Source: an uncultured Clostridia bacterium (GTDB lineage: Bacteria; Bacillota; Clostridia; TANB77; CAG-465). Taken from it: 32,000 nucleotides of DNA. This document shows positions 26,838-30,857 of this stretch, piece by piece. Under the pieces are notes generated by a model. It made no database searches, was not told the origin of the DNA, and saw only the letters and a list, made by a program, of their open reading frames with translations. The stretch is taken from positions 152,833-184,832 of the forward strand of contig CANQYI010000002.1 of NCBI GenBank assembly GCA_947628005.1, written 5' to 3'. How positions within the stretch are numbered: position 1 is the stretch's first letter; every line of letters begins with the position of its first letter. The position numbers and the translations under genes are program-made.

Positions 26838-26858
26838 TGCTAAATAATTATTTTAGCA
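26838..26858 (+). promoter_or_regulatory. Conserved leader palindrome, cassette 1
   Basis: TGCTAAA-TAATTAT-TTTAGCA, a perfect 7-bp inverted repeat. It lies about 20 nt after the -10 and 27 nt before the ATG. Confidence 0.7.
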
Positions 26859-26884
26859 AGTTAATTTACTAGGAGGAATATTTT

Positions 26885-28084
26885 ATGTATGAGAGAATTT
26901 TAAAATTGGTATTAAAAAACTCTAAAATAATTAAAGAATTATTAAATGATCCTGACTTTAATATAAATGTTGAAGGAAGGTTTCTATTTAATGAGGCGAT
27001 AAGAAATAACGATGTAAAAATGGTAAAAATACTACTTTCAGACAAACGGTTAGATCCATCGGCAGATTCAAACTATGCAATAAGATATGCTGCGGAAAAT
27101 GGTTATGAAGAGTTGGTTAAGTTATTTTTAAAAGATGATAGAGTAGATCCGTCAGAATATAATAGTTATGCAATAAGAAGGGCATCAAAAAATGGCCATA
27201 CAGAAGTAGTAAAAATACTGCTTGAAGATGGTAGATCAGATCCATCAACACATAATAATGCTGCAATAAGATATGCATCAGAACATGGATACATAGAAAT
27301 AGTAAAATTATTGTTAGTAAATAAAAATGTAGATCCCTCTGCAGATGATAATTATGCTATAAAAAAGGCTTTAGAAAATGGTCACATAGAAATAGCAAAG
27401 TTGTTACTTCAAGATAAAAGGGTAAATTTAACAGTAGATATTGATTATGTAATGAACGAAGCTTTATATTGTGGTTATACAGAAATAATTAGTTTTTTAT
27501 TGTCAGATGATAAAATAGATCCATCGGCAGATGATAATTATGCTATAAGATATGCATCGGCAAATGGTCACACAGGAGTAGTAAAGATATTACTTGCAGA
27601 TAAGAGAGTTAATCCATCATCATACAATAATTTTGCAATAAGAATTGCATCTGAAAATGGGCATATAGAAATAGTAAAACTATTATTACAAGATAGCAGA
27701 GTGGATCCATCAACGGCAAATAATAATGCAATAAGAAGGGCATCATCAGGTGGTTATACAGAAATAGTAAAATTATTGCTCAAAGATAATCGAGTCGATC
27801 CATCAGATTATGATAATGAAGCAATAATAAATGCATCAACAGATGGTTATACAGAAATAGTAAAACTGTTGTTACAAGATAGCAGAGTGGATCCATCAAC
27901 GGCAAATAATAATGCAATAATAGCTGCAGCAGCAAATGGTCACATAGGAGTAGTAAAAGTACTTCTTACAGACGAGAGAGTCGATCCATCAGCTTGTGAT
28001 AATTATGCAATAAGATATGCATCAGCAAATGGCCACAAAGAAATAGTTAATTTACTGAAATTTGATAGAAGGTATAGGGCATAA
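26885..28084 (+). CDS. Ankyrin-like repeat protein, 12 units of a 31-residue repeat (cassette 1)
   Basis: 399 aa. Units match D-N-Y-A-I-R-x-A-S-E-N-G-H-x-E-I-V-K-L-L-L-x-D-x-R-V-D-P-S, which resembles the ankyrin helix-turn-helix core A-x-x-G-H-x-x-V-V-K-L-L-L. AGGAGG SD. No signal peptide. Confidence 0.8.
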   Translation: MYERILKLVLKNSKIIKELLNDPDFNINVEGRFLFNEAIRNNDVKMVKILLSDKRLDPSADSNYAIRYAAENGYEELVKLFLKDDRVDPSEYNSYAIRRASKNGHTEVVKILLEDGRSDPSTHNNAAIRYASEHGYIEIVKLLLVNKNVDPSADDNYAIKKALENGHIEIAKLLLQDKRVNLTVDIDYVMNEALYCGYTEIISFLLSDDKIDPSADDNYAIRYASANGHTGVVKILLADKRVNPSSYNNFAIRIASENGHIEIVKLLLQDSRVDPSTANNNAIRRASSGGYTEIVKLLLKDNRVDPSDYDNEAIINASTDGYTEIVKLLLQDSRVDPSTANNNAIIAAAANGHIGVVKVLLTDERVDPSACDNYAIRYASANGHKEIVNLLKFDRRYRA

Positions 28085-28090
28085 CAATAT

Positions 28091-28121
28091 AAAGTACTAT
28101 AGCATTTGCTATAGTACTTTT
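28091..28121 (+). terminator. Palindromic terminator, cassette 1
   Basis: AAAGTACTATAGCA-tt-TGCTATAGTACTTTT. Confidence 0.7.
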
Positions 28122-28158
28122 AAATTTGCCATTTTATGTTATTTATATATATAAAATG

Positions 28159-28187
28159 TTGAAATATAGAAGAAACTGTGCTATAAT
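28159..28187 (+). promoter_or_regulatory. Sigma-A promoter, cassette 2
   Basis: TTGAAA (28159-28164), a 17-nt spacer, then TGcTATAAT (-10 at 28182-28187). Confidence 0.7.
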
Positions 28188-28207
28188 GTTGGCGTAAAAA
28201 TTTTTAA

Positions 28208-28228
28208 TGCTAAATAATTATTTTAGCA
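28208..28228 (+). promoter_or_regulatory. Conserved leader palindrome, cassette 2
   Basis: TGCTAAA-TAATTAT-TTTAGCA, identical to cassette 1. Confidence 0.7.
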
Positions 28229-28254
28229 AGTTAATTTGTTAGGAGGAATATTTT

Positions 28255-30016: not shown

Positions 30017-30035
30017 GCCAACATAAATTTTTTAA

Positions 30036-30056
30036 TGCTAAATAATTATTTTAGCA
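30036..30056 (+). promoter_or_regulatory. Conserved leader palindrome, cassette 3
   Basis: TGCTAAA-TAATTAT-TTTAGCA. Confidence 0.7.
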
Positions 30057-30081
30057 AATTAATTTATTAGGAGGAATTTTT

Positions 30082-30699
30082 ATGTATGAAGATCTTTTAG
30101 AGATACTCTTTAACAATCCCAAAGTTATTAAAGAGCTGTTGAATGATCCCAAATTTGACCCAGATGAACAGGCAGAGATACTATTTAATGATTCGGCAAC
30201 AAGAGGAAATGCAGAAATAGTAAAAATGTTACTCGAAGATGAGCGAGTAGGTCCGTTAGTAAATCACAGCGACGCACTAATGATGGCATCAGCATACGGT
30301 GGTACAGAAGTGGTAAAATTGTTACTTGTAGATAAGCGGGCAGATCCATCAATACAAGATAATGCTCCAATAAGACTAGCGTCAGAGTACGGTAATATAG
30401 AAATCGTAAAACTGTTACTTGCAGATGAACGAGTTGATCCGTCAGCGAGTGATAATTTTGCAATACAGACAGCCTCAGAAAATGGTTACTTAGAGATAGT
30501 AAAATTGTTGCTTGCAGATGAGCGGGTAGATCCCTCAGCAAATAACAATTATGCATTAAGGATGGCCTCAAAAAACGGTCGTACGGAAGTCGTAAAACTG
30601 TTACTCACAGATAACAGAGTCGACCCGTCAGCGCAAAATGCCACATCAACATATGGGCACAGAGAAATAGCTTACGTGTTAAGAAGATATAAAAAGTAA
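30082..30699 (+). CDS. Ankyrin-like repeat protein, about 6 units (cassette 3)
   Basis: 205 aa. Head MYEDLLEILFNNPKVIKELLNDPKFDPD, the same repeat consensus and a basic tail RRYKK. Confidence 0.8.
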   Translation: MYEDLLEILFNNPKVIKELLNDPKFDPDEQAEILFNDSATRGNAEIVKMLLEDERVGPLVNHSDALMMASAYGGTEVVKLLLVDKRADPSIQDNAPIRLASEYGNIEIVKLLLADERVDPSASDNFAIQTASENGYLEIVKLLLADERVDPSANNNYALRMASKNGRTEVVKLLLTDNRVDPSAQNATSTYGHREIAYVLRRYKK

Positions 30700-30705
30700 A
30701 ACTAT

Positions 30706-30738
30706 AAAAGTACTACAGCAATTTGCTATAGTACTTTT
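30706..30738 (+). terminator. Palindromic terminator, cassette 3
   Basis: AAAAGTACTACAGCAA-t-TTGCTATAGTACTTTT (one mismatch). Confidence 0.65.
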
Positions 30739-30788
30739 GCATTAAGAAAAATTTACAATTTATTTTTAGTTATATTTAAATAAAAACA

Positions 30789-30817
30789 TTGAAATATAAA
30801 GTAAACTATGCTATAAT
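30789..30817 (+). promoter_or_regulatory. Sigma-A promoter, cassette 4
   Basis: TTGAAA (30789-30794), a 17-nt spacer, then TGcTATAAT (-10 at 30812-30817). Confidence 0.7.
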
Positions 30818-30836
30818 GTTGGCAAAATTTTTTAAA

Positions 30837-30857
30837 TGCTAAATAATTGTTTTAGTA
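30837..30857 (+). promoter_or_regulatory. Conserved leader palindrome, cassette 4 (variant)
   Basis: TGCTAAA-TAATTGT-TTTAGTA. The single arm change C to T would still pair as G-U in RNA. Confidence 0.6.

What the first reader, a model, noticed from the sequence alone, without database searches (positions are those of the whole stretch)
26838..30857. Perfect 7-7-7 palindrome TGCTAAA-N7-TTTAGCA conserved in the leader of every cassette
The same 21-nt element sits at the same offset in all four cassettes (26838, 28208, 30036, 30837), about 20 nt downstream of the -10 and about 27 nt upstream of the ATG. It is identical in cassettes 1-3. There are two readings. One is an operator for a dimeric DNA-binding regulator acting as a roadblock just after the start site. 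The other is a 5'-proximal RNA stem-loop, either an mRNA stabiliser of the kind known for Firmicute leaders or the binding site of an RNA-binding regulator. In cassette 4 the only arm change (TTTAGCA to TTTAGTA) converts a G-C pair to G-U. That preserves an RNA helix but breaks DNA dyad symmetry, a weak hint toward an RNA-level role. Either way it defines a small regulon whose regulator is not in this window.
Basis: seen in the sequence. Interest (0 to 1): 0.65.

Follow-up and report, generated by a model that had tools for sequence, protein, structure and literature searches.

The report
Leader hairpin of duplicated ankyrin genes
A 21-base palindrome sits before four neighbouring ankyrin-repeat genes of an uncultured gut Clostridium because one ~100-base promoter-leader unit was copied and kept uniform; it most likely forms a small hairpin in the mRNA leader and does not mark a regulon, so it is a fairly ordinary feature.

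Summary
TGCTAAA-N7-TTTAGCA lies at 26838, 28208 and 30036 (identical) and at 30837 (one loop change, one arm change), 19-20 nt after a TTGAAA-17-TGnTATAAT promoter and 25-26 nt before the ATG of four ankyrin-repeat genes.

The four copies are not independent. The whole ~100-bp promoter-leader unit and a shared terminator are duplicated and homogenised by gene conversion, while the proteins are only 46-56% identical.

The useful evidence comes from outside the window. A sister species (GyrB 98%) has two such cassettes with TGCTAGA-N7-TCTAGCA, one compensatory A-T to G-C pair. Cassette 4 has G-U on the sense strand. The arms vary less than the flanking discriminator and linker. This favours a 5'-UTR RNA stem-loop (-3.4 to -8.1 kcal/mol).

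Its function is unproven. It starts about 13 nt from the predicted 5' end, so it is not a classical 5'-terminal stabiliser.

The regulon reading is unsupported:
- no other copy in ~51 kb of the source contig;
- five adjacent ankyrin cassettes of a second family lack it;
- relatives with GyrB 88-96% identical lack the array;
- no regulator gene lies nearby;
- no Rfam family matches.

A 7-bp palindrome arises in 11% of shuffled leaders. Interest is low to moderate.

The parts
26790..26818 (+). Cassette c1 promoter: TTGAAA (-35), 17-nt spacer ending in TGA, TATAAT (-10)
   Evidence: 11/12 match with TG extension; -35, TG and -10 are invariant in all 11 leader sequences
26819..26826 (+). Hypervariable discriminator / start-site block (GCCAACAT). 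Predicted transcription start near A26825 (inference from -10 spacing)
   Evidence: GCCAAC, GCTAAC, GCGGAC, GTTGGC, GTCGGC and TTGGAC in different cassettes and strains
26838..26858 (+). c1 leader palindrome / predicted 5'-UTR stem-loop, 7 bp stem and 7 nt loop
   Evidence: -5.4 kcal/mol; pair probabilities 0.76-0.98 in leader context
26871..26876 (+). c1 Shine-Dalgarno AGGAGG, 8 nt before the ATG
   Evidence: invariant in all copies
26885..28084 (+). c1 ankyrin-repeat gene (399 aa)
28091..28120 (+). Terminator hairpin shared by all four c cassettes (AAAGTACTATAGCA-TTTGCTATAGTACTTT)
   Evidence: one search lists this hairpin as a minus-strand site; it lies just after the c1 stop codon
28159..28187 (+). 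c2 promoter
28208..28228 (+). c2 leader palindrome (identical to c1). In this leader the fold prediction prefers pairing of the right arm with the SD region
28255..29931 (+). c2 ankyrin-repeat gene (558 aa)
29936..29968 (+). c2 terminator hairpin
29988..30016 (+). c3 promoter. The upstream tract is identical to c1 over about 75 nt in this strain, the product of a recent gene conversion
30036..30056 (+). c3 leader palindrome (identical to c1)
30082..30699 (+). c3 ankyrin-repeat gene (205 aa)
30706..30738 (+). c3 terminator hairpin
   Evidence: one search lists this hairpin as a minus-strand site; it lies just after the c3 stop codon
30789..30817 (+). c4 promoter
30837..30857 (+). c4 leader palindrome variant TGCTAAATAATTGTTTTAGTA: G-C to G-U in the sense RNA plus one loop change
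   Evidence: -3.4 kcal/mol
30883..32000 (+). c4 ankyrin-repeat gene (372 aa; the stop codon ends 1 nt beyond the window)

Best explanation
The palindrome is the DNA image of a small stem-loop (7 bp stem, 7 nt loop) in the ~60-nt 5' untranslated leader of a lineage-specific family of ankyrin-repeat genes.

Each gene is its own transcription unit: a strong sigma-A-type promoter, an AU-rich 5' tail, the hairpin, a variable linker, a perfect AGGAGG, the gene, and a shared terminator. The hairpin recurs because this expression unit was duplicated with the genes and is kept uniform by gene conversion, not because separate promoters acquired a common regulator site.

Pairing of the stem appears to be maintained by selection at the RNA level. 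Its most likely role is a modest cis effect on mRNA life or translation. It could act as a barrier to 5'-to-3' decay or endonuclease entry once the tail is trimmed, or it could keep the U-rich right arm from pairing with the SD.

Shown: the anatomy, the duplication and conversion, the compensatory pair, and the predicted folding. Inferred: the transcription start, that the element is transcribed, and any effect on stability or translation.
For: 1. One compensatory change. The sister species (GyrB 98%) carries TGCTAGA-TAATTAT-TCTAGCA in both of its cassettes, in three independent samples. RNAalifold keeps exactly this helix and nothing else. Only 7 of 500 column shuffles reach the observed covariation, and slid registers drop from 98.6% of cells paired to 17-59%. 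My own estimate is that two neutral substitutions would land on one pair and stay complementary with a probability of about 0.01-0.03.

2. The path A-U to G-U to G-C is neutral in RNA: -5.4, -5.5 and -8.1 kcal/mol. The other half-step, an A-C mismatch, destabilises the stem.

3. The cassette 4 change gives G-U on the sense strand only.

4. Variation is concentrated in the discriminator just before the predicted start and in the hairpin-SD linker. The five outer stem pairs keep pairing in all 10 distinct leaders: three are invariant, one has the G-U change and one the compensatory change.

5. The hairpin is predicted with pair probability of at least 0.68-0.73, and above 0.8 for most pairs, in 9 of 10 leaders folded from the predicted start.

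6. The unit is far better conserved than the genes it drives: 82-97% against 45-75% identity in the first 150 coding nt. The proteins are 46-56% identical.

7. Stem-loops together with a strong SD are the known determinants of stable leaders in Firmicutes (PMC3997798). A 2016 paper by Lee et al. on synthetic UTRs with a stem-loop in Clostridium acetobutylicum is cited in PMC9680021.
Against: - Only one compensatory event exists, in two closely related lineages.
- Template-switch mutation in palindromes can create complementary double changes without selection (PMC7202029; bioRxiv 10.1101/2021.04.15.439925).
- The stem is weak, and whole-leader folding energies are no better than shuffles (z -0.2 to -1.0).
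- With the start predicted from the -10, about 13 nt remain unpaired at the 5' end. RppH needs only 2-3 unpaired nt (PMC3997798), so classical 5'-end occlusion is not met.
- One low-coverage strain contig (L207, 3.9x) breaks the innermost pair.
- The second ankyrin family has the same promoter and SD design but no hairpin, so the hairpin is not needed for expression of such genes.
- No transcript data are available.
Confidence: 0.5

Rival explanations
1. Neutral passenger. A chance palindrome in the ancestral leader was copied with the promoter unit and homogenised by gene conversion. The complementary double change in the sister species arose by intrastrand template switching, not by selection. 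The element does nothing.
For: - A perfect 7-bp inverted repeat occurs in 11% of shuffled leaders and is common in this AT-rich intergenic DNA.
- Gene conversion is directly visible. The c2-c3 spacer differs by 6.5% between two strains that differ by 0.3-0.7% elsewhere, and c3 matches c1 in the window strain.
- Identity among cassettes therefore needs no selection on the palindrome itself.
- Quasipalindrome correction by template switching is an established mutational route (PMC7202029; 10.1101/2021.04.15.439925).
- The second ankyrin family manages without the element.
Against: - The arms vary less than the adjoining discriminator and linker within the same converted unit.
- Both non-breaking arm changes keep RNA pairing.
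- A 7-bp stem is short for template-switch hot spots (my knowledge of the E. coli reporter systems).
Confidence: 0.3
2. Operator. The dyad binds a dimeric DNA-binding regulator just downstream of the start site and blocks or modulates transcription of the four ankyrin genes.
For: - Perfect dyad symmetry on duplex DNA, centred about +23 or +24 from the predicted start, a position used by roadblock repressors (inference).
- Outer half-sites TGCT/AGCA are almost invariant; only the c4 C-to-T change in the right arm departs.
- An exact copy of the 21-mer lies 22 nt after a consensus promoter of a TerD/TelA-type operon in an unrelated Clostridia MAG (L003). This could hint at a shared factor.
Against: - A symmetric double change of both half-sites between species with 98% identical GyrB is not expected for a conserved regulator. 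If the position is uncontacted, the symmetry is unexplained.
- The c4 change breaks DNA symmetry but not RNA pairing.
- Arm centres are 14 bp apart, off the usual 10-11 bp for helix-turn-helix dimers (my knowledge).
- ParB is the only DNA-binding protein that Pfam detects in the window, and no regulator domain is recorded for the called genes in the flanks fetched.
- No other site in ~51 kb.
- The L003 match is about what chance allows: 1 of ~97 hits against about 0.4 expected for the spacer alone.
Confidence: 0.15
3. Translational switch. The right arm (UUUUAGC) pairs either with the left arm or with the SD region (yUAGGA), so a factor that captures the left arm or loop would mask the ribosome-binding site.
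For: The alternative 6-9 bp helix can be drawn in all leaders and is the predicted minimum-energy fold for c2, with SD unpaired probability 0.05-0.09. 88.6% of cells pair.
Against: Its covariation is no better than the shuffled control (396 of 500 shuffles reach it). The one pair that varies is unpaired in 7 of 10 sequences. The helix is rich in G-U and A-U pairs. No ligand or protein is indicated, and no Rfam family matches.
Confidence: 0.05

Closest known systems
5' leader stem-loops that work with a strong ribosome-binding site to stabilise Firmicute mRNAs (Bacillus subtilis aprE leader; synthetic stem-loop UTRs in Clostridium acetobutylicum)
   Same: A short hairpin in the 5' UTR of a strongly promoted gene with a perfect AGGAGG, in a Firmicute genome. 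A cis-acting, RNA-level role is the best fit to the substitution pattern. PMC3997798 names 5'-end occlusion and a strong SD as the common determinants of stable leaders.
   Different: The known stabilisers sit at or within a few nt of the 5' end. Here about 13 unpaired nt are predicted upstream of the stem. The stem is also weak (-3.4 to -8.1 kcal/mol). No stability data exist.
Roadblock operators of dimeric repressors downstream of the transcription start
   Same: A perfect inverted repeat on duplex DNA between the start site and the SD.
   Different: No regulator, no second target, an odd half-site spacing, a compensatory change, and a G-U change that breaks DNA symmetry.
CIRCE, the HrcA operator (TTAGCACTC-N9-GAGTGCTAA)
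   Same: Shares the hexamers TTAGCA and TGCTAA and lies in a leader. CIRCE is also thought to act both as DNA and as an RNA hairpin (my knowledge).
   Different: The arms are in the opposite order (TGCTAA on the left, TTAGCA on the right), the CTC/GAG part is missing, the spacer is 7 not 9, and the genes are not chaperones.
Multigene families with a homogenised 5' expression unit (for example the Mycoplasma vlp/vsp surface-protein families; from my knowledge)
   Same: Paralogues with divergent coding bodies but near-identical promoter, leader and first codons, maintained by concerted evolution.
   Different: No homopolymer-based phase switch, invertible element or signal peptide is evident. 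The proteins are cytoplasmic-looking ankyrin repeats.

Membership tests
5'-terminal mRNA stabiliser stem-loop | Stem-loop at the extreme 5' end, leaving fewer than about 2-3 unpaired nt | tested here: not met
   The -10 ends at 26818. The start is predicted near 26825 and the stem begins at 26838, leaving about 13 unpaired nt. The rule comes from PMC3997798. The start is predicted, not mapped.
5'-terminal mRNA stabiliser stem-loop | Lengthens mRNA half-life in cis | not testable with these tools
   Needs a rifampicin chase with wild-type, disrupted and compensatory leaders.
5'-terminal mRNA stabiliser stem-loop | Base pairing, not sequence, is conserved | tested here: met
   One A-U to G-C pair and one G-C to G-U pair; 98.6% of cells paired. 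This rests on a single event.
Operator of a dimeric transcription factor (regulon) | Dyad symmetry in duplex DNA | tested here: met
   7-7-7 perfect in three cassettes.
Operator of a dimeric transcription factor (regulon) | Sites at several unrelated promoters | tested here: not met
   All sites lie in one duplicated unit. None elsewhere in ~51 kb of the source contig. Absent from the adjacent second ankyrin family.
Operator of a dimeric transcription factor (regulon) | Cognate regulator gene, usually nearby | tested here: not met
   ParB is the only DNA-binding protein found by Pfam among the window genes. No regulator domain is on record for the called genes in the flanks fetched.
Operator of a dimeric transcription factor (regulon) | Protein binding to the duplex | not testable with these tools
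   Needs gel-shift or pull-down assays.
Described cis-regulatory RNA (riboswitch, T-box, ribosomal-protein leader and others; Rfam 15) | Match to a curated covariance model | tested here: not met
   No match in the region at gathering score. At E <= 1 the only hit is a chance snoRNA match outside the leaders.
Intrinsic terminator / attenuator | G+C-rich stem followed directly by a U tract | tested here: not met
   The stem is followed by AGUUAAUUU. The terminator scan lists the cassette-end hairpins but not this one.
CIRCE / HrcA operator | TTAGCACTC-N9-GAGTGCTAA upstream of chaperone genes | tested here: not met
   Arm order reversed, spacer 7, genes are ankyrin repeats.

The most novel reading that the evidence does not exclude
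The stem-loop, as RNA or through its DNA dyad, is the recognition site of a dedicated trans-acting factor. That factor would co-ordinately control one of two lineage-specific, fast-evolving ankyrin-repeat gene families in an uncultured gut Clostridium. The exact copy of the 21-mer in the leader of a TerD/TelA stress operon of another Clostridia MAG (L003) would then mean the factor is shared more widely among Clostridia.
Probability: 0.12. Interest if true: 0.5.

Novelty: new member of a known kind. Interest (0 to 1): 0.25.

Why it matters
The element itself matters little: it is one more short 5'-UTR hairpin in a Firmicute leader, with only thin comparative support. Its setting is more instructive. 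An uncultured gut Clostridium, whose closest named relative by GyrB is Clostridium sp. CAG:921 (88% identity), has inserted two families of ankyrin-repeat genes, at least nine in all, into a variable spot between gyrB and the infC operon next to the replication origin. Each gene has its own strong promoter and terminator. These expression units are kept nearly identical by ongoing gene conversion while the proteins diverge. If these proteins interact with a host or with phage, the leader unit is the handle for their co-expression. It would also be a ready-made strong expression cassette for low-GC Clostridia. The case also shows that repeated 'conserved' motifs in tandem paralogues should not be read as a regulon.

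Tried and rejected
1. Whole-collection scan for TGCTAAAWWWWWNWTTTAGCA in 185,579 species genomes. Nearly all hits are terminators, repeat elements or chance matches in unrelated phyla.

2. Protein-based search of JGI metagenomes with the cassette N-termini. It returned 80 loci of generic ankyrin proteins, none with the palindrome. Two human-gut contigs (L141, L153) show the same habit of duplicated promoter-leader units before ankyrin paralogues, but with an unrelated leader.

3. Homologue searches with cassette 3 and with the N-terminal 48-residue profile found no close relatives outside this species.

4. The idea that the variable block after the -10 (TGCCAACA against TGTTGGCA, exact reverse complements) marks a tiny inversion. 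Rejected, because other strains and species show GCTAAC, GCGGAC, GTCGGC and TTGGAC. It is simply the unconstrained discriminator.

5. An SD-sequestering alternative helix has no covariation beyond controls.

6. An 8-11 codon upstream reading frame starts at the ATG that overlaps the left arm (MLNNYFSKLIY in c1). It has no SD, its stop position is not conserved, and both sister-species changes are non-synonymous. It was judged spurious.

7. Known operator consensuses recalled from memory (Rex, Fur/PerR/Zur, ArgR, CcpA cre, CodY, LexA, parS, DnaA box): none fits in both half-site and spacing.

8. Viral contigs: no match. Rfam: no family.
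Full report
**The observation**

The 21-mer TGCTAAATAATTATTTTAGCA is present at 26838, 28208 and 30036. A variant, TGCTAAATAATTGTTTTAGTA, is at 30837. No other match with up to two mismatches exists in the window.

Each copy lies 19-20 nt after the -10 of a near-consensus promoter, TTGAAA-17-TGnTATAAT. 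Each lies 25-26 nt before the ATG of an ankyrin-repeat gene. The genes are c1 26885-28084, c2 28255-29931, c3 30082-30699 and c4 from 30883. Cassette 4 also has a loop change.

**Why the four copies are not four observations**

Aligning the upstream regions shows that the whole stretch from the -35 to the ATG is shared. It is 82-97% identical between cassettes. By contrast, the first 150 coding nt are 45-75% identical and the proteins 46-56% identical. Each cassette also ends in the same 12-15-bp terminator hairpin.

Strain comparison shows how this arises. Between two strains that differ by 0.3-0.7% in the coding regions, the c2-c3 spacer differs by 6.5%. All of those changes fall in the promoter-leader. 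In the window strain, c3 has become identical to c1 over about 75 nt. That is recent gene conversion.

The recurrence is therefore concerted evolution of one expression unit, and the shuffle statistic does not apply. For a single 66-nt leader, a perfect 7-bp inverted repeat with a 3-10 nt loop arises in 11% of shuffles.

**The setting**

The window is the replication-origin region: rnpA-yidD-yidC-jag-mnmE-mnmG-rsmG-parA-parB on one side and dnaA-dnaN-recF-gyrB on the other. It comes from an uncultured low-GC (27%) Clostridium. Its GyrB is 88% identical to that of Clostridium sp. CAG:921.

On the same contig the c array is followed by infC-rpmI-rplT-efp and then by at least five more ankyrin genes, d1-d5. 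These have a related promoter and the same SD region, but a leader about 16 nt shorter with no palindrome.

In relatives with 96, 94, 91, 90, 89 and 88% GyrB identity, the gyrB-infC interval holds other genes or nothing, and no c-type unit. Only the sister species at 98% has c-type cassettes, and it has two of them. The array is thus a recent, lineage-specific insertion in a variable spot.

**The informative comparison**

In the sister species both cassettes carry TGCTAGA-TAATTAT-TCTAGCA, in three independent samples. Relative to the window, position 6 changed A to G and its partner, position 16, changed T to C. These are the only differences within the 21-mer.

- RNAalifold on the 10 distinct leaders returns this hairpin as the only consensus structure. 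It has one compensatory pair, one G-C to G-U pair (cassette 4) and one broken closing pair, the last in a single 3.9x-coverage contig.
- In the pair-count test, 98.6% of cells pair, against 17-59% for slid registers. Only 7 of 500 column shuffles reach the observed covariation.
- My own estimate is that two of about seven neutral substitutions in the 60-nt leader would hit one stem pair and remain complementary with a probability of about 0.01-0.03.
- Hairpin energies are -5.4 kcal/mol (window), -8.1 (sister species) and -3.4 (cassette 4). The half-step A6G gives G-U at -5.5, so an RNA-neutral path exists.
- Across all leaders the variable positions cluster in the 8-nt block just after the -10 and in the 12-nt linker between hairpin and SD. 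The -35, TG, -10 and SD are invariant, and the five outer stem pairs keep pairing.

**RNA or DNA**

A complementary double change and a sense-strand G-U are what an RNA stem predicts.

A protein operator predicts either conservation of both half-sites or independent drift. It also lacks other support:
- No regulator gene lies nearby. ParB is the only DNA-binding protein that Pfam detects among the window genes, and no regulator domain is on record in the fetched flanks.
- No further site exists in the ~51 kb of the source contig that I could read.
- The arm centres are 14 bp apart.

I therefore favour a transcribed stem-loop, with three reservations:
- It rests on one evolutionary event.
- Template switching within palindromes can produce complementary double changes mutationally (PMC7202029; bioRxiv 10.1101/2021.04.15.439925).
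- Leader folding energies are not better than shuffles (z -0.2 to -1.0).

**What the hairpin would do**

[quoted passage not shown] Bacillus subtilis RppH needs only two to three unpaired 5' nt (PMC3997798).

Here the SD is perfect. However, with the start predicted about 7 nt after the -10 (near 26825), some 13 AU-rich nt precede the stem. The element therefore fails the defining feature of a 5'-terminal stabiliser.

It could still slow 5'-to-3' decay after trimming, hinder endonuclease entry, or keep the U-rich right arm from pairing with the SD. That alternative helix can be drawn in every leader and is the predicted fold for c2, but it shows no covariation beyond controls.

The element is not a terminator and matches no Rfam family. 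The d family shows that such ankyrin genes can do without it.

**Searches elsewhere**

- One hit is odd. An exact copy of all 21 nt, with unrelated flanks, lies 22 nt after a consensus promoter in the leader of a TerD/TelA-type operon of another Clostridia MAG (L003). Given about 97 hits and a 1-in-256 chance of the same spacer, about 0.4 such matches are expected. I record it but do not build on it.
- Metagenome and protein searches found no close relatives of the c family. Viral contigs hold none.

**Verdict**

| Reading | Probability |
|---|---|
| Selected 5'-UTR stem-loop with a modest cis role | about 0.5 |
| Neutral passenger | about 0.3 |
| Operator | about 0.15 |
| Translational switch | about 0.05 |

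It is a new member of a known kind, and interest is low to moderate.

Noticed in passing
L001 13900-20618 (same contig; window coordinate = L001 coordinate + 20081, so about 33980-40700, beyond the window end): A second family of at least five tandem ankyrin-repeat genes (342, 590, 414, 531 and 620+ aa). Each has its own TTGA-type promoter and an identical TAATCTTTATAACTATTAAGGAGGATTTTTTATG leader that lacks the palindrome.
   Followed up: partly
window 24963-26884 and the gyrB-infC interval in L218, L220, L223-L226, L229, L230: The interval between gyrB and infC is a variable spot. It is empty in one relative. In others it holds acetyltransferase and ABC-transporter genes, small unknown genes or ankyrin cassettes. 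gyrA is not next to gyrB in any of them.
   Followed up: partly
window 29932-30081 compared with L209 14783-14937: Recent gene conversion. The c3 promoter-leader equals c1 in the window strain. In another strain of the same species it has a 4-nt insertion, GCGGAC and an A5T5 run like c2.
   Followed up: yes
L003 748-768 (Clostridia MAG S26M_St_7, JAUNGP010000015.1): An exact 21/21 copy of the palindrome with unrelated flanks. It lies 22 nt after TTGACA-17-TGTGATATAAT and before a second hairpin and the SD of a TerD-domain/TelA-like operon. Chance is plausible but not certain.
   Followed up: partly
window 26819-26826, 28188-28196, 30017-30024, 30818-30825: The block just after the -10 reads TGCCAACA in c1 and c3 and TGTTGGCA in c4, its exact reverse complement (c2 has TGTTGGCG). 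Other strains show intermediate variants, so this is most likely an unconstrained discriminator and not an inversion.
   Followed up: yes
window 26837-26872 (and the same offset in c2-c4): An ATG overlapping the left arm opens a short frame (MLNNYFSKLIY in c1) whose TAG stop overlaps the SD in c1-c3. It ends 4 codons earlier in c4 and the sister species. It has no SD and is not conserved as a peptide.
   Followed up: partly
window 3950-5239 (+), 5369-6028 (+), 6067-7215 (-): Three genes with collagen triple-helix (G-X-Y) repeats, reminiscent of exosporium or BclA-like proteins of spore formers.
   Followed up: no
window 9379-9927 (-) and 9042-9272 (-): A gene with a phage GP30.3 domain (PF08010) sits beside two tRNA genes between the parB side of the origin region and the collagen-like genes.
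   Followed up: no
L204, L205, L212-L216 (Logan contigs): Many short-read assemblies of this species break a few bases after the palindrome. This is as expected where a repeat shared by four cassettes collapses the assembly graph. Cassette order in such assemblies should be treated with care.
   Followed up: no
L153 2190-2335 and 3500-3632; L141 2650-2790 (human-gut metagenome contigs, 29% GC): Another organism also carries tandem ankyrin-type paralogues preceded by near-identical ~130-bp promoter-leader units with an unrelated sequence. Homogenised expression units before ankyrin paralogues may therefore be a recurring pattern.
   Followed up: no
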